From Nageia nagi (Eukaryota > Plantae > Pinophyta): a DNA stretch of 64,000 nucleotides. Below the pieces are notes generated by a model. It saw only the letters and a program-made list of their open reading frames with translations, ran no database searches and was not told the DNA's origin. Below are positions 33,996-62,250 of the stretch, in pieces (positions within the stretch are counted from its first letter, which is position 1; every line of letters starts with the position of its first letter). The translations under genes were made by a program, and so were the position numbers. The stretch is taken from assembly GCA_050084985.1 (NCBI GenBank), contig JBITNC010000001.1:18476001-18540000 (forward strand). Reading direction: 5' to 3'.

Positions 33996-36900
33996 TGAAG
34001 GATTTGAGCCTTAAATAACACAATCCTAAACTACTAATATATATTGTAAGTTCACTCAAACATCAATTTACTCAAAGCTTAACAATCTCACAAATTGACT
34101 CAAGATATAAAATAGTTCCTCAAACTAAGAGTACATCCACTATCAAAGATTTTTTTTTATTCACAAAGATAACTCTCTTACAATAATTCTTTCTACATCT
34201 TTTAATCACTATCTTAGAGCATAACTTTGCTTCACAATTGTTGTGTGATCACAAAGAGGAGGGCTTCTATTTATAGGCCAAAATATCCCTTTAGATCACC
34301 CTTTTAACCATAGTACAAAGGCATGACATGCTTCACCCTTTTACCCAAGGGGCATGCTCATGAGATGGAGTGTAGGATAAGTTACATTATCATATTTACT
34401 TCAATAGTTAAGGTATCCAGGGATACCATTACGTATTAGTGAATTGATAAAAAAAAACATTACAAAACCTTACAATAATTCATTATATATTCCAACACTC
34501 CCTCTTAATGAAATGTTAGGATAAAGTGAAGAAGAGAGAAGAAAGAGAGAGTAAGAGAGTTCTCCTCCATACAAATACAATCAAAGATGAGAACTTTTTA
34601 CATCTTTATGAAGTAAGCAAGATCTTAGTTTGAGAATCACTACTTTACCATTCTAACAAATGGTTTACAATACAATCATTAACCATACCTGGTTTTAATG
34701 TACATAAAGTAGTCATCCAAGTGGAAGTTGACATGATTAGCCTCCATGAACTTGCATACCTGAAGTAAGTAATTTGCAATCTTAAAAGAAACTTACAAGC
34801 TACAAGTAGCTCAAATAACAAAATTAGTTATATGCAACACATTCATATCAACAAGGATAGATGAATCAAACAATGCCATCCTAAATTGATCAATGGTGCA
34901 TTATAAGTCATCACGAAGATTCTAAACCAATACTCAGTCACCTATTGTATACAAAATATGTGTTGATTATCATTACAAAATGCACATACAAGGTCCTCAC
35001 ACATGGATAATTGAATATTTTAAAAAGACACATACATGATCCTCACAGATAGATAACTAAATAGTGCTAGGATGATCAATCATTTGCTTAAAAAAATATA
35101 CAAATTCTTCACATGAAGCGAACTTACCATGGTGTACAACAAAATCAACACTATACAACATAAAATCCTCTTAAGGGTGAAGTTATCATCATAAATATGA
35201 ATTCAACATAATAATTCATACTTCACTCCCTCTTGAGGGCAACTTCACCAACTTGATAGCATCCCTAAGCTTACTAAATTGAGCTTCAAGAAGGGGTTTG
35301 GTAAATAAATCAATGAAGTTCAAGGTTGATGGACAATACTCTAGGTGTATAATGCCATTAAGAATCTTTTCTCTAATGAAATAGGATTGGATTTATAAAT
35401 GTTTTATTCTCTGATAGAACATAAGATTCTTAGCCAAAGAAATAGTTGATTAATTTTTTTAAAAAATCATATATGGCCTAGCTTTCTCATACCCAATTTC
35501 TTTTAGAAGATGCCTAATATAATATTGTTAGAATTTGTAATGAAATATTGTGAATATCTAAACTCCTTGTAAATTCAATTAATCACTTAAAGGATATGTA
35601 GATACCTTAAGGGATTAATTGAATTCTTTATTATGTGTTGACTTTGACCTTACCATGGGATTAATTGGTAGGTTAAAGTTAGGTCATACATTTATTGTAA
35701 CCCTAACCTTACCCTTGGGTTAAAGGGAGGTTAGGGAGGTGCTCTCATGCTATAAATAGAGGGCCTCTCCTCTTGTAAAACAACCAAGTTTTTTGGAGTA
35801 AGATTACTCTACTAGTTTGTGTAGGAGAGAAAGAGAATTGTAGTAAGAGGTGCATAGATTGAGAATTGAGAACTAGTTGTGGATGTACTCCCAAGGAGGG
35901 AGGAACCACATTATATTTGTGTTATCTTGTGTGAATGGTGTTATGTTGAATGATTGAGTTTCCTAGTCTTGGACCTTGAGAATTAGAGTAGGTCTAATTC
36001 CTTCAAATATAGCTTCTTAGGTTGCAATAGACATGGCTCAGTATTTGGATTCTATGGTGGAAAGAAAAATAGTAGGCTGCTTCTTGGAAGCCTAAGAAGT
36101 AGAACTTGGATCAATGTTGAATACATACGTAGAGTTTGATTTCCTATCATCTCTGTCTCCCTTATAGTTAGAATCTAAGAACTCTGAGAGAAAAAATGAG
36201 GGCAACTTGAAATATTTGAGAGCAAGATCCTTCATCCCTAAAACATATCTCAAGATTTGCTTAAGAGCATTAAGATGTGCAACATATGATTTCTACATGA
36301 ATCGATCATTAGATTCATTACAAAGGCAATATCTAGCTTGGAAATAGTCAAATCAAGAAGACTTCAAATTAATTACCTATAACTTGTAGCATCTACCAAC
36401 TATGAGTTGAAGCTAAGAGAAATAATGATTCCAAGAGAGATTAGAATCATAGCATGTCTACACTTTTCCATTCCAAACTTTTGCAAGATGTCTAATATAT
36501 ACTTGAATTGATTGAGATACATATAATTCTTGTATTGGTATACTTGCTTTCCAAGATAGTAGTGCAAGAGATCAAGATCAATCATTTTAAATGTTACCTT
36601 AAGCTTGGATATACACTCTTGAATGATTTCATCATTATTCCTAGTTATTAGAATATCATTCACATAAATGAGAATCAATACCATGTCTTTTCTTTAATTT
36701 AGTACATAAAGATCAGAGTCAAAGAAGCACTTGGATAATATAATATTTGCAAAGCATCCTAAAATCTTCTTATACCAGGATCTAGGTGCTTGCTTAAGTC
36801 CATACAATGACTTCTTTAGATTGCACACAAATAAATCTTTTCCTTCCATAATAAATCCTTCTAGTTGATTCATGTAGATTTTCACATCTAACTCACCATT

Positions 36901-39900
36901 GAGAAATGCACTCTTTATGTCAAGTTAAAAAAATTTCATCTTTGAGTTGTTGAAAGAGAAAGGATAATTTTGATAGTAGGCATCTTTGCCATGGGAGCAA
37001 AGGTTTCCTCATAATCAACACCATATTTTTGAGTAAAACCTTTGGCCACTAGCCTTGTCTTGTATTTCTCAATATCTTCAATTAAATTAAACTTGACCTT
37101 GTAGATCCATTTATTGCTAATCACATTCTTCTCATTGAGATAAGAAACCAAATCCCAAGTTTTATTTTTTATAAACATCTCATACTCCACTTTCATGGCT
37201 TTCATCCAGAACCCATGCTTTGAAGCTTCTTTGAACGATGAGGTCTCATTCTTGTTATCAATTTTGGAAGTAAGGATTTGTTCAAGGTTATACTCCTTGT
37301 TATCCTTTGCATTGAAGAATTTCATTCCTAAGGTGACTTATCTACAGCAATATCTAACCAGCTTGGTGCAACTGATGAGTCATCTAGATCATCAACATCC
37401 TCATTAGAACTAACTTCTTTAAGAATTTAATTGGACTTTACATCCCTTGATATGAACATAGCTCTATAAGATAAAGTGTAGATCTTATAGCGTCTATGTT
37501 GATGATCATAACTAACAAAGATGCATTTGTCAACTTATTTATCTAACTTTTTTCTTTTCTTAGAAATAATATAGGAGAATGCTTCACAACCAAACACCTT
37601 AAGATGAGAAATATTAGGTCTTATTCTTTTCCAAGCCTTAAAAAGAGTTTTCTCTTGAATGATTTTTGTGGGACACTTATTCAAGATGTAAATTACAATG
37701 CTCATAGCTTCACCCTATAAAAACTACGAAGATTACCCAACATACATATAGCCATATCCATAATTATCATGTTTTTCCTTTTGATAATATCATTTTGCTG
37801 AGGAGTGTAAGGAATCATAAATTGCCTTTTGATTTCATACTTGGCGCAATAGACATTGAACTCATTGTTGTTATATTCTCCCCTATTATGTAATCTCAAG
37901 GTCTTGATTTTAAGGTTAGTCTAATTTTCAACTAAGGCCTTGAAATTTTTAAAACTCTCAAAGGTTTGATCCTTATGCTCATGTAGATAGCCAAAATTCA
38001 TCCTACTAAAGTCATCAATGAAGGTTAATACATAAGATGCTCCCCCAAGTGACTTAGTCTGAAATATACCTATCAAATTTGAATGAACAAATTAAAGAGG
38101 ATGAGATGCCCTTGTTGCCTTATCTTTTTCAAACCTTTGTCTATTCATCTTTCCTAGGATGCACTTCTCACACAAACTGATTGAAGGTGAAATTGAACTA
38201 AACCTTCCATAAGTTGTTGGTCTTTCATGACTTGAATACTCTTATGGTTAAAGTTCCCTAAATATTGGTGCCAAAGATTACCTCTAGAACACACATTTGT
38301 AGTAAGACACATCTTTGTTAAAAATTGATCCATAATGTAAAGATCCTCTTTCACTGATCCTTTAACCAACATGGCAAGTCCCTTCTTAATACACCAAGAG
38401 TGTGATTCGAACTCAAATGAGTATACTTTTTATGCAACTTGAATCAAGAAGATAAGGTTCATCTTGAACTTAGGAACATAAAGCACATTTTTCAAGAACC
38501 TTCCTATGAATCAACACACTTCCAATTCTTTGAACTTTAAGAATTAAATTATCACCAATCACAACTGCAACTTTTCTATACTTATAAAAATTTTCAACCT
38601 TATCATTTTCAAAGCATAGGTGATTAGTGCATTTAAAGTCAACAATCCATTCATACAAGAAGAAGCAAGTCGTGGAATAGAGCCTAGCAACAAGTCCAAC
38701 TTTTATATTCTATGGTCAACAATCTAATTGCACCCACAAGCAATAAGTTGGATCCTAAAGTCAATAATTTTATTCAAGTAGATGGTAACATTTTCATCTT
38801 CCCTAGACAAGATTGAAGTAAATTTTACATAATAGTGAACCTTTTTGAAAATTTAGATCCAAGGTAAATTTTCTTGAGCTTATCTCATGCTTCATTTGCT
38901 AAGGTTGATGATGAAATCATAAGGAGCACTTCATCTAACATTGCATGAAAAATCATGAAGGTTGCTAATTCATTCTTTGTGTTGTATGCCTCAAGTGCTT
39001 TTTCATTTGTAGGAGCAACAAGGTTCTTATTAATTATCTGTCAAATTTTCTTTGCTTGCAATTTAACTCTCATCTGAGGTTCCCAAATACCAAAGTTGGA
39101 ACCATCGAGAATGTGCTTAGGTAAGAAGGTGTCTCACATTTGCTACATAAGAATGTGAAAAGTAAGCATGTGGTCTAAAATAACATTACATGTTTAGATT
39201 TAATCATCTATACATGTTTTAGATTTATTCAAGTAAATCAATCATACATGTTAAATTTAATAAAAGGACATGCTTAATTTGTTTAAACAAAGTTCACATG
39301 TGCAAATGTTTACAATATAAACACATAATACATCCCATGTATTTGACACTTTTATCATCACCAAGTACCATAAATGTAGAGGGATAATGTTGAGGATTAT
39401 TTTCTTATTTAAAATTAGACCTTCACCTAGATATCGTAAGGTGGAACCCAGGTACTATCAATCTTCTTCTAGTTTACCTTGGGCAGTAACATACTCTCAC
39501 AAGGAGGAGTACCTACTATTTTTCAAAGTTGTGATGTATGTTAGATCAACCAAATTATTAATCTTGATTAGGTTTTAAGTTATCCTCGTAGGTTTTCAAG
39601 ATAATTCTTAAATGAACATGTGAACATGTGGTATCACTACACACATATCTATCCACCTATTGGAGTTATATCCAAACTAATAAAGAATTTAGGAGCAATT
39701 AATAAGTACAAAATTTTTACCATTTGGATCATCATACTAAAGGCTCCAATCTGCCTTATCCTCACCTTGTGACTCCCCAAACAAGTCATGTTGCGAAATG
39801 TACCTATGGATGTATTCATTTTAGGGGTTTGCACATTCAATTTTTGCAATTTTGCATAAATAAAGCAAAGATATAAACATAAAGTAAAGTGCATTTAAAA

Positions 39901-50903: not shown

Positions 50904-51253
50904 TCAAACTGGTTTGTCATGTAAACAAGACATCAATGCTGATACTACATGCAATGACCCAGTAACACATATAATGCCATGAGAGTCATTACTAGTAAGT
51001 TCCAACAATTTCCCAGCCTTCTTTACGGCAGCTTCTACAGACTCAGGTTCTGTAGCGACCAGTAACTCTGAACTCCCATGACTAAAATCTTTCGGCGCAT
51101 AGTTGATTTGCTTTTCATTCCAATCTGTAACAGACAAACTATGCTCTCCTGCAATTTGCATCCAAATTCTTGACAATGAAGAAGCAGGTGTTGTGCGGAT
51201 GTTGCTACCAGCCACACCAACCTCGGTGAAAACAGCTGCCATTGGCAGTGCAC
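50904..51253 (-). CDS. DHFS: Dihydrofolate synthetase (FolC family), last coding exon
   Basis: TTTGTAG| acceptor, phase 1. Encodes ALPMAAVFTEVGVAGSNIRT...IICVTGSLHVVSALMSCLHDKPV* with the FolC C-terminal xTGSL motif. Confidence 0.92.
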
Positions 51254-51850
51254 CTACAAAGCTCCACCACATAACCAGTGAGTAGTAATTAAAACGAATT
51301 TATCAGAACATTTTGGCCAGTCATAAAGATTAGGAACCACCAGAGTCTAAGAGTCAACTATTTGAATTCTGATTAGCTTCAATCCGTAATCAAAATAAGA
51401 CGATAAAAATGATTGTGAAGATGCAAAGGTTGTTGATTTTATTCACAATACCATTGCTATAAACTCATGGATTGTACAAATCTATGTTATGGAGTCTTCA
51501 TTTTATAACTATTTTGAAGAAAGTCACTTGAATTTTCCCCCAATTCAATCAATAGTAAAAATATGAACACTCCCAACTAAACCCATAAGAGCATACGTAG
51601 ATCAATTAAACTCCATGAATTTCGCATTTTATTCTGCTCCCTAATTAATACACTTTGGAACCCATTAGGCCATTACTATTTTCCAATCATGATTTTGGGT
51701 CATCGTACAAATATCAAATAATTACTTCTGTACAATTACTTCAGTAGCTGATTTCAATCAGCAGACCGTCAATCTATTTAGGCTTCATGTTTGGCTTGAA
51801 GGGGAATGGCGGAAGGTTAATCTACTCTCAAGATAAAATACTCAAAACAG

Positions 51851-52213
51851 GGGCTGGTAGCTCAGTGGTAGAGTACATATGCCAGTATCAGAAGATGCCA
51901 GTTTTGAATTGTTATGAACCGTTACACAAAAGGTCGACCTATTAGTGAATCCAACACCATGGATCTAACATATCACCACGCTCCGCATCCACGTCCCGCG
52001 GCTTCACTTGTGGCGGCTCTCATCTAGTCATTCTCTAGGTAGCCTTTCACAGTAGCCCTTCCGGGGACTTGAACTTGGGACGTATGGCCTGCTATGATAC
52101 CAAATTATGAACGTTAACACCAAAGGTCGACCATAGTGATCCACACACCCAGATCTTAACATGAATCCTAACGGGTCCATAGGTTCTAAGAATAGTTGTA
52201 AGTCCAAAAAAAA
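51851..52213 (+). mobile_element. tRNA-derived SINE-like element (or tRNA pseudogene) interrupted by a TRIM
   Basis: A-box TAGCTCAGTGG (51858-51868) and an intact D-arm. Removing the TRIM restores GTTTTGAATCC (B-box) and the acceptor 3' strand CGGGTCCA. A-run at ~52206-52213. The anticodon arm does not pair. Confidence 0.75.
51910..52161 (-). mobile_element. 252-bp terminal-repeat retrotransposon in miniature (TRIM)
   Basis: LTRs 51910-51970 and 52105-52161; outer termini TG..CA; TSD TGAAT (51905-51909, 52162-52166); PBS TGGTATCATAGC at 52102-52091. Confidence 0.88.
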
Positions 52214-52309
52214 TATTACAAATTGTAAACTTGAATTCAAACTAACAGATGAGCACCCATCACAATACAATACAATTCAAACACCTGCTAGAAAAAGGAA
52301 TTACACTAC

Positions 52310-52441
52310 CTGAAATGATTTGATCAGCAAAAGCTGAATGATCTTTGTCATTTGCCATAGCTATAACAAAGGCCAACGGTTGATCTGAATGTACCATCCT
52401 GATTGTGGCTGCTATAGCTTTGGCAGACGCTTCCGTGTGTG
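52310..52441 (-). CDS. DHFS: DHFS penultimate coding exon
   Basis: ATTAG| acceptor and CAG|GTAG donor. Encodes AHTEASAKAIAATIRMVHSDQPLAFVIAMANDKDHSAFADQIISG. Confidence 0.92.
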
Positions 52442-52520
52442 CTAATTCAAGTAACACAAAAATATTAGAAAATATCAGAGGTTTTATAGCACTTTGAAGG
52501 AAGATTACTTAGCAAAGTAC

Positions 52521-52652
52521 CTCCATCAAGAATTACGGTATTTCCTTCAATACCAAGCATCTGAACTTGCTCAGGTGTCAAATACTGAAATCTTCCACAT
52601 AAAGTTGTGCTCTCTAGCCCAGCACGTATTGACTCATCTGAAATTTTCCAAC
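52521..52652 (-). CDS. DHFS: DHFS internal coding exon (upstream exons not seen in the window)
   Basis: GTTAG| acceptor and GAG|GTAC donor. Encodes WKISDESIRAGLESTTLCGRFQYLT..VILDG; splicing rebuilds the FolC LDGAHT motif. Resembles plant DHFS (Arabidopsis GLA1/FOLC1 type) more than FPGS, from recall. Confidence 0.92.
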
Positions 52653-53361
52653 CTAACAACAAATGGAACAGGAATTTACTCATAAGAACAAAACTAGAAC
52701 CAGAAAATCCAGAATTACATATTCCATGTTACTGTTGAGATATCTGACAGCCTAATAAAAACGTGCACTAACTCCCATGTACTAAATAATACATTGCAGC
52801 ATATGACTGGACAAACAATTTCCAATGCACTTTTTGCTTTTACATTCAATGGATGAATTTAAACGGTCGCAATCTGGTAGATTATGGAATAATATTTGTC
52901 ATAATGTAGCAATCTGGCTAGATTATGGTAATAGGATTATAATATTTCCTTATGTGGTTTTACCTACTACCTTGCTTTGCCTATTATTGGAGTAACAGTC
53001 TACCCTGATTGTACATTTCCACTACTCTCACAAACCATTTTGCATTGTACATAAACATTGCGTAAGGTGGAAATACTCCAGATGTCGAGTTGTTATTAGC
53101 ACTGTCATTTTACTGAAAAATATACTCGTATATAGTATATAGGCATGTTGAACTTCAAATAATAGAAAATAAAATAAATTAGATGGTTTTGCTAAGGTTT
53201 TTTATACGGTTGTACATACTTAATTTGGATTTTGCTATTTAAAATGACTTCTATTTTAAGTGTTTATCTGATTTATGCAAAATGCAATTTTGGGCCCACA
53301 TGGGATCATTTTGGAAATTAACTTGAGCAATATCTTCAAATTTCATATTTTCCCAAGTACA

Positions 53362-56759: not shown

Positions 56760-58040
56760 TTCGCCCCCTTTGCTACATACCTCCATTTTGCTTTTTGCCC
56801 TCTTGCTTCCATGACTCAAAAGCCAACATCTCACCCTCTCTGATTCAAGCTCATGTGGGAAAGCTACAATTGCCATCGAGATCTACAGTTAGCCCGTTAA
56901 TGGCGCGCTAACAATGGAACCACCTCTACGGTCTTGGTGAAGCCTTTTCATGAAAGAGGCTAATGAGAAGATGTCTCAAAATACCTCGCTCGATCATCAA
57001 TCAGGCAATTGAGCGAGGGCGCTACAATTTGGTAGGAAGACTTCATGGAGCACGTCCAAACTAAGTTACCGATTCAGGTACGTGTTCAGATTCAGGTTCG
57101 TTGTTTCAATTTGCAGATTTGGCAAAAAACAAATTTGGGTTTTGGGTACGGTTTGGGTACGTCCATACAAAAACCATGTAAAAATCAGAAATAAACATAA
57201 ATTTGCAGCCTAGAAACATGAAATTAAGATTAGAGTATCACATAGCATCATATAAACAACAAAACCACCATAAACATGAATGTCATTTAAAACATGCATG
57301 AGAAATTTCGCTCAAACTTCAAGTTCAATATTAAAATATTAATATCAAGTTCAAGTTTCAACGGTTCAAATGAAACTTCTAGGAGTCTAAGATTCTAAAT
57401 CAGTAATCTCATCATCATCATTGACATTAGATGATGTAGGAACATTAGAACCACAACCAATGCCACTGCCACATGCACTAACAACATGTTCATGTTCATC
57501 CAAGTCATCATGTTCAACTCCCTTTGATCACTCTTCAACTCTGAAGACAAGGGTTAGCCTTTTGGAAAAAACTTTGTTGTTTGCAAGGGAAATGAACAAG
57601 AATGAATGAGTTTAGAGGGTTTAAGGCCTTTAAGAGGTAACTTTTAGGGTTTCCCATATGTAATTGGTCAAATTCAAGGAGAAAAACAATAAAGAAATGA
57701 TAAAATTTATTAAAAAATCGGCCAGACGCCTTGGATACTTTGCGAGTACTTCCTGATATGCCCAAGTACTCCCACGTATGTTAGTGGCGTATCCGACTTC
57801 AAAAAAACATTTCCTAGACAAATCCGTTCGCGTATCGAACCCGTATCCATATCCAAAACGTACGGAACCCGTATCCACCCCTTCTGCAGGTGTATCCAGT
57901 AACTTAGCGTCCAAAACATTGATTTAATCCGAAGGTGGGAAAAACAGAAATGGACAATCAAGGGCAGCCTTGATGTTGTTGCAATACCTAGTGACTATAT
58001 CATGTTCGCTTTCAGCAATGAAGAAGACAAAGATTAATAC
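56760..58040 (+). mobile_element. L1-type LINE 5' fragment (ORF1 N-terminal DUF4283-like region) interrupted by a hAT element
   Basis: Reads LVGRLHGARP|NIDLIRRWEKQKWTIKGSLDVVAIPSDYIMFAFSNEED across the excised insert. Confidence 0.75.
57061..57907 (-). mobile_element. Non-autonomous hAT DNA transposon (847 bp)
   Basis: TIRs CTAAGTTAC..GTAACTTAG; perfect 8-bp TSD CGTCCAAA; reverse-complement relative of 60867-61959. Confidence 0.93.
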
Positions 58041-58305
58041 TTAACTTACCTTATAATGTATGAAGAGTGGCGGAATGGGGACGGTGCGCTAGTTACAGGG
58101 AAAGCGAAATAAAATTTCAAAAAAGTGAGGGCGGATCATAACTTCAGTACCTAGTGACTATATCATGTTCGCTTTCAGCAATGAAGAAGACAGAGATTAA
58201 TATTTAGCTTTATAATGTATGAAGAGTGGCGGAATGAGGACAATGCGCTAGTTACAAGGAAAGCGAAATAAAATTTCAAAAAAGTGAGGGCGAATCATAA
58301 CTTCA
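57985..58305. repeat. ~160-bp tandem duplication spanning the junction of two LINE fragments
   Basis: 57985-58146 and 58148-58305 are near-identical. Confidence 0.9.
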
Positions 58306-59700: not shown

Positions 59701-62250
59701 CTTGGAAATGCAATTAAAATGCAGCCAAAACTCTCAAGAAAGGAATCCATACAAAATAAGGAAGGTGTACAGACTTGAGGATGGGCCCCACTATGATTGA
59801 AGTGGCAATCTATTGAGTCACATGGCTCGGGTAAAGGATATTTACTATGTCAGATGGTGGGACCAACATCTTCAAATAAGGAGTATGAATGAAAGGAGTC
59901 GGCAACTAGTAGAAGTGATAGGTGATGATGTACGCAACTCAAACGAATCCCACAAGTTCCATAAGCCTCAAGTCAGAGATAGGGGACAGTGCGGCACACG
60001 AATACTCGTAACAGATGGTGGTCTAAGTTCCGAGGTGGTGGAAATCCAGAAATTATATCATCATTATCCAATGTTGTTTTGAGGCATGCAAAGGCAGATT
60101 TGAGAATTGCAAATATGGCCAGAAAAGGAGGAAAACCCCTTCTAAGGAAAAGGGTTCCTAAGAAGAGGCCCAAACCCACCTTAAAGAGGGAAGAAGAGGA
60201 GAGTAGAACCAAATCAAGCTGTTGAGGTAAGGAGTAAGAAAATTCTTCAAGATGAAAAAGGTAGTACAAGAGATCCTAGACATCCCAAAAAACCCTAGCA
60301 ACCCTTGGAATTCTAATGGCAATGCACAATAAGGCAAAAAAAAGGAAATGGAGGATTCTGAGAATCTTGGTGATTTTGGACTAGGAGAAAAGGAAGGGGA
60401 AAAGGAAGATAGTTCAAAGGAAACCCACGTAAGCTCTAGAAAATTTAAACCTAAGGAATTGGAGAGCCAGGAGCTCTCCAATTTCTTCTAAAAGCCCGAC
60501 AGTTGAAAAAAATAACGATAGAAAAAACGAATCCGATGAAACATGGGAAATAAGTAAAGGAGACCCCTCAATTGTCCCAGAGGGAATGACCATGAAGAAG
60601 AATGAGGAAACTAACTCAGACCATATGGAAGAGGATATATGGAGCAAAGAAGAATCCTCCAAGATCCCAGAACCCACCAAGTCTAAGTTGCTGAAGATCA
60701 ATGATCAGGAGAAACGCATCAAACCGGGAGATCCTTCGCCAAGAAAGCAATCAGAAGCAGAAGTTCAATTGGGTAAGAACTCTCCACTCATTCTTGAGTA
60801 TGTTTTGTTGATTGAAAAAGATTAGTTAGCAGAAGAAAAGGGAAAAGTTTCTGCCAAAGTACAAACCTAAGTTACCGGATACTCCTGTAGAAGTGGTGGA
60901 TACAGGTTCAATATGTTTCGCATACGAATACGGGTTTGATACGTTTCGGATTCAGATATGGATACGGTTCAATATGCAAATGGATTCGTCCAGGAAACAC
61001 TTTTTTGAAGTCAGATACGCCACTGATGTACCTAGGAGTACCCAAGCGTATCAAGAAGTACCCACGGAGTATCCAAGGAGTTTAGTGGATTTTTTAATGA
61101 AGTTTATTATTTTTTTATTGTTTTTTCTCCTTGACTTTGACCGATTGCACATGGGCGACCCTAAAAGTTACCTCTTAAAGGCCTTAAGCCCTCTAAACTC
61201 ATTCATTCTTGTTCATTTCTCTTGCAAACAGCAAAGTTTTTTCCAAGAGGCTGAGCATTGACTTCAAAGTTGAAGAGTGATCAAAGCGAGTTGAAGAGTG
61301 ATCAAAGGGATCTTCTACAAGGATTGTATTGTCATTTCTACTCATCCACTCAGTCAAACACAATAGAATGAACTCAAAAAAGCGGAAGACTTAGTATATG
61401 TGTATTCCAACTTGCGCCTCCTTTCACACAAAGAAAATGACTATAAGCAAGCGGAGATGAAGTTGTGGGATATACAGCCAATACAAGCTCACTTGGATGC
61501 ATCCAATTCCCAAAATATATTACCCATTTGATGACTTGGATGAACATGAAGATGTTGTTAGTGCAAGTGGCAATGGCACTGGTAGTGGTTATAATGTTCC
61601 TACATCATCTAATGTCAATGATGATGATGAGATTATTGATTTAGAATCTTAGACTCTTAGAAGTTTCATTTGAACAGTTGAAACTTGAACTCAATATTAC
61701 TATTTTAATATTGAACTTGAAGTTTGCGCAATATTTGTCATCCATGTTTTAAATGACATTCATGTTTATGGTGGTTTTGTTATTTATATGATGTTATGTG
61801 AAACTCTAATCTTAATTTCATGCTTCTAGACTGCAAATTTATGTTTATTTTTTATTTTTACATGCTTTTGTATTGACATACCCAAAACATTTTTTTGCCA
61901 AATCCACGAATCGAACCAACGAACCCGAATCTGAGCCTGTACCCGAATCGATAACTTAGGTACAAACAGAAGGAAGGTCAGAAGCACCTAAAAAGCAACC
62001 AAAAGAAGGTGAAACAGAGGAGGACACTCCCCTTGTAATACAGTCACTGAGTGTCATTAAACCAGTGATCACAAGATCAGCAAGCACAACACCACATACC
62101 CTAAGACAGAAGAGGAGAAAGAGATCTAATTCCAAGATGAGGCTGTAGAAGAGAAGGATCGAAGCACCTCAGGCAGAGAAGACCGCAACAATAAAGAAGA
62201 TGGGAGGGCCATGCCCTCAAAGAATAAGTAATTCAGTTTTTAGTAGTATT
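59700..62250 (+). mobile_element. Degenerate TE-derived ORF remnant (possibly the tail of a plant-mobile-domain-like accessory ORF of a gypsy element)
   Basis: Purine-rich coding-like sequence, YYVRWWDQH followed by a long K/E-rich region; interrupted by a hAT with intact TSD. Confidence 0.35.
60867..61959 (+). mobile_element. Non-autonomous hAT DNA transposon (1093 bp) retaining the transposase C-terminus
   Basis: TIRs CTAAGTTAC..ATAACTTAG; perfect 8-bp TSD GTACAAAC; IHSVKHNRMNSK..AEDLVYVYSNLRLLS (hAT dimerisation region) at ~61344-61430. Confidence 0.93.

What the first reader, a model, noticed from the sequence alone, without database searches (positions are those of the whole stretch)
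51905..52166. Ultra-small LTR retroelement: 252 bp with ~60-bp LTRs
Seen: two direct repeats (61 and 57 bp, several indels between them), TG..CA outer ends, an exact 5-bp TSD TGAAT, an iMet PBS (11/12 match), and only ~134 bp of non-coding interior. Established: TRIM LTRs are usually 100-250 bp, and the grass SMART elements are about 290 bp with about 85-bp LTRs (from recall). Inference: this may be an undescribed family at or below the known lower size limit for integrase-inserted retroelements. The PPT is weak, and the 5' LTR has lost its inner terminal dinucleotide.
Basis: partly seen in the sequence, partly recalled or inferred. Interest (0 to 1): 0.8.

Follow-up and report, generated by a model that had tools for sequence, protein, structure and literature searches.

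The report
Tiny conifer LTR retrotransposon (TRIM)
A real 252-base, gene-less jumping element of the LTR type sits in an intron of a conifer gene and is absent from the same spot in two related plants; it is very small but not the smallest known, and it carries motifs that would form a tRNA-type promoter split between its end repeat and its interior, an untested idea.

Summary
Real insertion, no size record. Window 51910-52161 is a 252-bp non-coding LTR element on the minus strand: TG..CA ends, exact 5-bp TSD, iMet PBS 11/12, weak PPT. It splits a tRNA-derived SINE in the last intron of a conifer dihydrofolate synthetase gene. Related plants show the empty site (one contig skips exactly 252+5 bp; a second agrees) and other copies with 63-64-bp LTRs, so the short LTR is a family trait, not local decay. 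Whole-element size in other copies is only indirectly supported (about 260 bp). A 233-bp TRIM with 52-bp LTRs is already published (CcaRetroS9), so it is not below the known limit. The two local LTRs differ by 9 indels but 1 substitution while CpGs are kept: likely a young insertion with noisy assembly, so 61/57 bp and the lost TG may be errors. Extra lead: an A-box-like motif plus T4 at the LTR's inner end and a B box behind the PBS, 50 nt apart, conserved in relatives and echoed in rice SMART 20-mers, could form a split Pol III promoter (about 30%, motifs only). Verdict: new TRIM family member; no gymnosperm TRIM survey found.

The parts
51905..51909 (.). Target-site duplication, left copy (TGAAT)
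   Evidence: empty site in X2 skips 257 = 252+5 with 5 letters fitting both sides
51910..51970 (-). 3' LTR, 61 bp, TG..CA at both ends
51919..51931 (-). T4 run directly followed by an A-box-like motif (1 mismatch to TRGYNNARYGG in this copy), 20 nt from the LTR's inner end; candidate Pol III terminator and A box, function untested
   Evidence: 6 contigs (2 in each of X1, X2, X3) carry the extra base at 51926 that removes this mismatch
51971..51990 (-). Weak polypurine tract (14 of 20 purines)
   Evidence: similar interior start behind the LTR in 2 contigs of X1 and 2 of X2
51971..52104 (-). Non-coding interior, 134 bp in this copy (132 if the lost TG is counted to the LTR), 54% GC, CpG-rich
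52065..52074 (-). B-box-like motif (exact match to GTTCRANYC), 16 nt behind the PBS
   Evidence: 32 of 20000 shuffles of the interior give an exact match, 10 of 20000 within 40 nt of the PBS; lies in the block 52059-52105 conserved in X1-X3
52091..52102 (-). Primer-binding site for initiator tRNA-Met, 11/12, 2 nt behind the 5' LTR
52105..52161 (-). 5' LTR, 57 bp in this copy; inner terminal dinucleotide missing here but present in relatives (63-64 bp)
52162..52166 (.). Target-site duplication, right copy (TGAAT)
51850..52213 (+). Host element: tRNA-derived SINE-like insertion (A box 51858-51868, B box split by the TRIM, A8 tail 52206-52213), antisense to the gene; boundaries approximate
   Evidence: (weak tRNA match 51851-51905, 14.7 bits, below gathering 29); continuous in the empty sites of X1 and X2
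51254..52309 (-). Last intron (GT..AG) of a dihydrofolate synthetase / folylpolyglutamate synthase gene; exons at about 52519-52653, 52310-52457, 50907-51253

Best explanation
This is a 252-bp non-coding LTR element (a TRIM) that inserted with a 5-bp target duplication into a SINE in a conifer gene intron, and it is likely copied in trans by the reverse transcriptase and integrase of an autonomous, likely Ty1/copia-type, retrotransposon. Shown: structure, exact empty site in relatives, other copies at different flanks, LTR of 63-64 bp in those copies, host a conifer. Inferred: an RNA from 5' LTR to 3' LTR is primed by initiator tRNA-Met at the PBS, second strand at the weak PPT, integrase makes the 5-bp TSD; intact family size about 260 bp; this copy is young (CpG kept, absent in relatives) and its LTR differences are mostly assembly noise. 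For the source of the RNA I favour, at under even odds (about 0.3-0.35), RNA polymerase III using an A box in the LTR and a B box behind the PBS and stopping at the T4 of the 3' LTR, which would explain how a 63-bp LTR without TATA or polyA signal suffices.
For: Structure. Empty site: X2 contig of 436 nt joins 51904 to 52162, skip 257, ends TG..CA, 203 letters on the short side; an X1 contig joins 51909 to 52206 with 40 letters that match 52167-52206 at 35 of 40 by eye. Family: 23, 8 and 14 contigs of X1, X2, X3 lie on the element stretch at 80% or more (0 of X4), with at least 3 different outer flanks in X2; two X3 contigs hold whole LTRs of about 64 bp beside a PBS; two further X3 contigs hold a 3'-LTR piece and the PBS block in order. 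PBS-side contigs reach at most 31 nt past the local interior/LTR border, four or five of them +27 to +31, as expected if 31-mer contigs break on entering a shared LTR at the same distance (14 rows taken from a table that left 23 pieces unshown). Youth and noise: 9 indels (8 single-base, 6 in homopolymer runs) against 1 substitution, while 6 control repeat pairs in the window give 1-26 indels against 9-136 substitutions at the same scoring; CpG o/e 0.86 against 0.09 and 0.00 in two older LTR copies. Copia-type partner: iMet PBS and 5-bp TSD (established knowledge), and SMART's candidate partner is a copia with 76-90-bp LTRs. Host: DHFS relative 91% to window exons groups with Cryptomeria and Taxus, support 84/85, inside a gymnosperm clade at 100/100.
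Against: No full-length second copy and no second TSD could be read: no genome is held and the read tool gave no spacing for the two bridging X3 contigs. One X2 contig runs 188 nt past the aligned LTR piece without a second aligned piece, although the PBS block should lie within it if the interior were the same length and 80% alike. No autonomous partner was found; the window holds no second copy. With harsher gap costs the LTR pair reads as 7 substitutions and 5 indels, so 'noise' depends partly on scoring, and no reads of the source individual were available (best holder 0.20). The A box alone is weak in this copy (2409 of 20000 shuffles reach 1 mismatch), and the majority lines of X1, X2, X3 each show one mismatch too.
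Confidence: 0.8

Rival explanations
1. Same TRIM, but its RNA comes from RNA polymerase II (a minimal LTR promoter, or read-through from host genes whose introns it sits in), and the B-box-like block behind the PBS is a packaging, primer-activation or TFIIIC-binding signal inherited from the copia partner, not a promoter for the element.
For: SMART's interior, which carries the same B-box-like motif behind the PBS, is 96% identical to part of the 5.2-kb copia FRetro64, too long for Pol III; SMART LTRs hold a TATA motif and the authors raise read-through. The T4 would lie within the first ~20 nt of a Pol III transcript in the 5' LTR and could stop it at once. LTR ends and PBS flanks are conserved for other reasons. 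This copy lies sense to its host gene.
Against: No TATA-like or AATAAA motif in this element; A-to-B distance of 50 nt is tRNA-like; exact A box at such a distance arises in 77 of 30000 LTR shuffles, though the exact form is inferred, not seen in one copy; 0 of 3 other iMet PBS sites in the window are followed by a B box; Cassandra shows Pol III start and stop inside the LTR with an 18-nt overlap.
Confidence: 0.5
2. The element is a one-off internal deletion product of a longer TRIM or copia element that has very short LTRs; the family is not ~250 bp.
For: No full second copy was read; the middle of the interior (51971-52058) has no cover in any of the 4 runs; copia elements with 76-117-bp LTRs exist; one X2 contig lacks the expected PBS piece.
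Against: Exact TSD with both PBS and PPT intact; two X3 contigs bridge 3' LTR and PBS block; upstream reach of PBS-side contigs stops at +31 past the local border; loose ends resemble the local interior on both sides.
Confidence: 0.17
3. Chance repeat or assembly artefact, not a mobile element.
For: The LTR pair is indel-rich, as noisy sequence is.
Against: Precise empty site in relatives, PBS and TG..CA in place, best of 802 candidate structures, dispersed copies in three other runs.
Confidence: 0.02

Closest known systems
TRIMs of plants, especially CcaRetroS9 of pigeon pea (Gao et al. 2016, PMC4717578; passages, section 6 and a term search of the supplement seen)
   Same: Non-coding, under 1.5 kb, two LTRs, TSD, intron location; CcaRetroS9 is 233 bp with 52-bp LTRs.
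   Different: Host is a conifer; that survey's 48 genomes list no gymnosperm (0 hits for Pinus, Picea, Cycas, Ginkgo, gymnosperm). Sequence could not be compared with CcaRetroS9.
SMART / FRetro129 of grasses (Gao et al. 2012, PMC3281118; sections 6, 12, 15, passages and supplement file 2 seen; figures not seen)
   Same: Similar size (292 bp, interior 122 bp), 5-bp TSD, iMet-type PBS, genic insertions. The published 20-mers show, read by eye, a T4 and an A-box-like stretch near the LTR's inner end and a B-box-like motif about 12 nt behind the PBS.
   Different: LTR 85 bp against 63-64; reported as confined to grasses; sequence likeness is modest: two SMART 20-mers hit the equivalent places here but 214 and 26 of 6396 window tiles score as well. 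Homology not shown.
Helenus / TRIMp3 (Kojima 2024, PMC10886601; parts 1-4 of 6 and a supplement search seen)
   Same: TRIM with tRNA-type A and B box motifs, proposed Pol III transcription; plant member has 5-bp TSD.
   Different: Helenus holds a whole tRNA-like piece with both boxes inside each LTR and is 311-1263 bp; here the boxes are split across LTR and interior with the PBS between them and Rfam finds no tRNA.
Cassandra (PMC10886601, PMC12486564, bioRxiv 2023.07.14.548913; passages seen)
   Same: Model for a Pol III TRIM that starts in the 5' LTR and stops in the 3' LTR with a short (18-nt) overlap.
   Different: 5S rRNA-derived promoter wholly in the LTR, 565-860 bp, stated absent from gymnosperms; no 5S match here.

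Membership tests
TRIM (criteria of Gao 2016) | Under 1500 bp, no gaps | tested here: met
   252 bp, window holds no N
TRIM (criteria of Gao 2016) | No retrotransposon protein | tested here: met
   stops in all 6 frames
TRIM (criteria of Gao 2016) | Two LTRs with TG..CA ends, PBS, PPT, 4-6-bp TSD | tested here: met
   inner TG missing here but present in relatives; PPT weak; TSD confirmed by empty site
TRIM (criteria of Gao 2016) | [quoted passage not shown] | tested here: inconclusive
   other copies at different flanks in three relatives' runs, but no second full copy or TSD readable; no genome held
TRIM (criteria of Gao 2016) | Mobilised by an autonomous partner | not testable with these tools
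   none in the window
SMART | About 85-bp LTRs, about 280-290 bp, grass hosts | tested here: not met
   LTR 57-64 bp, conifer host
SMART | Sequence similarity to FRetro129 | tested here: inconclusive
   only 2 of 80 published 20-mers were scored; right places, modest scores; full sequence not available
Helenus / TRIMp3 | tRNA-derived sequence with A and B box inside the LTR | tested here: not met
   exact B box only in the interior; no tRNA match by Rfam or ARAGORN
Helenus / TRIMp3 | Pol III transcription | not testable with these tools
   no RNA run among the holders; motifs only
Cassandra | 5S rRNA-derived domain in the LTR | tested here: not met
   no 5S match up to E=10

The most novel reading that the evidence does not exclude
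The smallest seed-plant TRIMs (this conifer family, grass SMART, perhaps CcaRetroS9) are Pol III retroelements with a split tRNA-type promoter: A box at the LTR's inner end, B box behind the PBS, T4 in the LTR as terminator. The promoter forms only at the 5' LTR-interior junction, so 3' and solo LTRs are silent, and the LTR can shrink to about 60 bp. This would be an unrecognised design spanning conifers and grasses.
Probability: 0.3. Interest if true: 0.7.

Novelty: new member of a known kind. Interest (0 to 1): 0.38.

Why it matters
As it stands: a verified, probably undescribed, near-minimal TRIM family in conifers, a group missing from the main TRIM survey, and a clean presence/absence marker in a single-copy gene. 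If the split Pol III promoter holds, it answers the question left open for SMART (how an element with no visible termination signal makes its RNA), explains why LTRs can fall to about 60 bp, and adds a type of TRIMp3 that LTR-only screens such as the Helenus search would miss.

Tried and rejected
Own genome: not held. Second copy in the window: none by blastn or nhmmer. LTR motif scan: 1 hit in metagenome contigs (L001, phage-like coding DNA, no second repeat, judged chance), 0 in viral contigs. PBS+B-box scan: 0 in viral contigs, 3 in prokaryote genomes (L002-L004, none an LTR element). The middle of the interior had no cover in any run. Rfam and ARAGORN: no tRNA, 5S or other family at gathering level; snoRNA hits at E 0.74-9 judged chance. 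Folding of the whole element: z -2.5, 4 of 200 shuffles as good, not pursued. Bacterial promoter scan irrelevant. Targeting to Pol III loci: rejected for now; the other flanks seen are not tRNA- or SINE-like. MITE reading: only 5-bp terminal inverted ends plus direct repeats and a PBS, rejected. Earlier notes by sequence and by place: nothing. Literature searches for TRIMs in conifers or gymnosperms (three papers checked by passage) and for A/B boxes in SMART or behind a PBS found no such report; the library lacks most subscription papers, and Repbase and Dfam were not searchable.

Full report
Observation. Window 51910-52161 is 252 bp, begins TG, ends CA and is flanked by TGAAT on both sides. 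It reads on the minus strand: 5' LTR 52105-52161 (57 bp), 2-nt spacer, iMet-type PBS 52091-52102 with one mismatch, non-coding interior, weak PPT (14 of 20 purines), 3' LTR 51910-51970 (61 bp). Of 802 TG..CA structures with a 5-bp duplication in the window it scores 52 and the next 30; 2 of 2531 control pairs at the same spacing reach its repeat score. No second copy lies in the window.

Setting. The element lies in the last intron (51254-52309, GT..AG) of a dihydrofolate synthetase gene on the minus strand. The closest protein (91% to the window's exons) is 79% to Taxus, 74% to Cryptomeria and 49-55% to the angiosperms listed and groups with those two conifers (84/85, not strong) in a gymnosperm clade (100/100). 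The host is a conifer, likely a cupressophyte. The target is a SINE-like element: exact A box at 51858-51868, a B box cut by the insertion, A8 tail at 52206-52213.

It is a real insertion. No genome is held, so I laid public runs of related plants (best share 0.20; flanks differ by several percent). An X2 contig joins 51904 to 52162, skipping 257 = 252 + 5, ends TG..CA. An X1 contig joins 51909 to 52206 with 40 letters that match the skipped right flank at 35 of 40 by eye, i.e. also empty. X3 and X5 do not show the site's state.

It is a family with short LTRs. On the element stretch 23 (X1), 8 (X2), 14 (X3) and 0 (X4) contigs lie at 80% or more, from about 56, 47, 91 and 100% of each run. X2 shows at least three different outer flanks. 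Two X3 contigs hold a whole LTR next to a PBS; counted from the listed indels and loose ends these LTRs are about 64 bp, and contigs of X1 and X2 give 63-64 bp. The inner TG missing here is present in X3 record 24 and in the loose ends of X1 and X3. Element length in other copies was not read directly. Two X3 contigs bridge the 3' LTR and the PBS block, spacing not given. Of 14 rows of PBS-side contigs none reaches more than 31 nt past the local interior/LTR border and the longest end at +27 to +31 (23 pieces of the table were not shown), as expected if 31-mer contigs break on entering a shared LTR at the same distance. Against this, one X2 contig runs 188 nt beyond its LTR piece with no second aligned piece. 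I put a family size of about 250-270 bp at roughly 3 in 4. No second TSD was read, so Gao's two-copy criterion is not formally met.

Age and reliability. The two LTRs differ by 9 indels (8 single-base, 6 in homopolymer runs) and 1 substitution at two of three scorings (7 substitutions and 5 indels at the harshest). Six control repeat pairs in the window show the opposite balance, e.g. 70 substitutions to 4 indels. The element keeps its CpGs (o/e 0.86; older LTRs 0.09 and 0.00; 14 of 1275 window tiles hold as many), while relatives' copies show CpG-type decay. A young insertion with noisy consensus fits best (inference); then 61/57 bp, the lost TG and 252 bp are underestimates, and LTR dating of this copy is unsafe. 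Real micro-deletion is not excluded.

Size claim. Gao et al. 2016 (PMC4717578, passages; preprint 10.1101/010850, passages) give CcaRetroS9 as 233 bp with 52-bp LTRs and 10 complete copies. Complete SMART copies average 260.6 bp in O. brachyantha (PMC3281118 section 6); the smallest sugar-beet element is 291 bp (PMC13570524 section 25). The element is near the floor, not under it. That survey lists no gymnosperm, and four searches found no conifer TRIM description, but Repbase, Dfam and the TRIM sequences themselves were out of reach, so 'undescribed' is probable, not shown. Figures of these papers and preprint supplements could not be seen and may bear on motif claims.

Mechanism. Shown: anatomy, TSD, dispersal. 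From established knowledge: iMet priming, PPT priming, integrase insertion with a 5-bp TSD, all supplied in trans; a copia partner is likely by analogy with SMART's FRetro64 but none was found. The open step is transcription. The element has no TATA-like or AATAAA motif. It has an exact GTTCRANYC match 16 nt behind the PBS (32 of 20000 shuffles; 10 within 40 nt; chosen after seeing it), and a T4 followed by an A-box-like motif 20 nt from the LTR's inner end, 50 nt ahead of the B box when placed in the 5' LTR (tRNA genes about 45, recalled). In this copy the A box has one mismatch, which is weak (2409 of 20000); six contigs carry the base that removes it, but the majority lines of X1-X3 each show one other mismatch, two of CpG type. 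An exact A box at tRNA-like distance arises in 77 of 30000 shuffles. The only blocks conserved in relatives are 51910-51953 and 52059-52105, which hold these motifs but also the integrase end and PBS. None of 3 other iMet PBS sites in the window has a B box behind it. Rice SMART 20-mers (read by eye) show the same order: T4, A-box-like stretch, LTR end, PBS, B-box-like motif; scored against the window, two of them hit the equivalent places with modest rank (214 and 26 of 6396 tiles). The SMART paper's main text has no occurrence of 'tRNA' or 'B box'. A Pol III RNA from the 5' LTR to the 3' LTR T4 would have a short terminal overlap like Cassandra's 18 nt. Against: the same T4 sits at the start of the transcript; SMART's interior is shared with a 5.2-kb copia and SMART LTRs have a TATA motif; there are no RNA data. 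I give it about 0.3. I noted this idea; unchecked AI notes on two yeast elements propose the same layout and one on a protist element finds both boxes behind the PBS. They are leads, not support.

Membership. It works like a TRIM and meets the tested structural criteria, one being inconclusive. It is not filed as SMART (LTR size and host differ, homology unproven), Helenus (boxes not both in the LTR) or Cassandra (no 5S).

Verdict. New member of a known kind; interest 0.38. The size record fails; the verified conifer family and the testable split-promoter lead are what remain.

Noticed in passing
window 51850-52213: The host SINE's head and the stretch after its B box resemble, by eye, the tRNA-like part of the Selaginella Helenus-1_SMo LTR printed; if real, a free SINE related to the piece that Helenus is thought to have captured exists in conifers.
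   Followed up: partly
window 51905-51909: The TRIM landed inside the SINE's B box; single case, other flanks seen are not SINE-like.
   Followed up: partly
window 3194, 41915 and 33996-34497: Two iMet PBS sites with the same downstream leader and related ~500-bp LTRs (78-85% identical copies): one decayed LTR retrotransposon family; a reverse-transcriptase-like frame lies at 36939-37337.
   Followed up: no
window 11369: Third iMet PBS with a different LTR start.
   Followed up: no
window 57061-57874 and 60928-61959; 57982-58305: Large inverted repeat pair (83-87%) and a 165-bp tandem duplication at 92%.
   Followed up: no
L003 972-1011: In a bacterial MAG a PBS-like 12-mer runs straight into what looks like the 3' half of a tRNA gene, probably an integration-site remnant; unrelated to the finding.
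   Followed up: no
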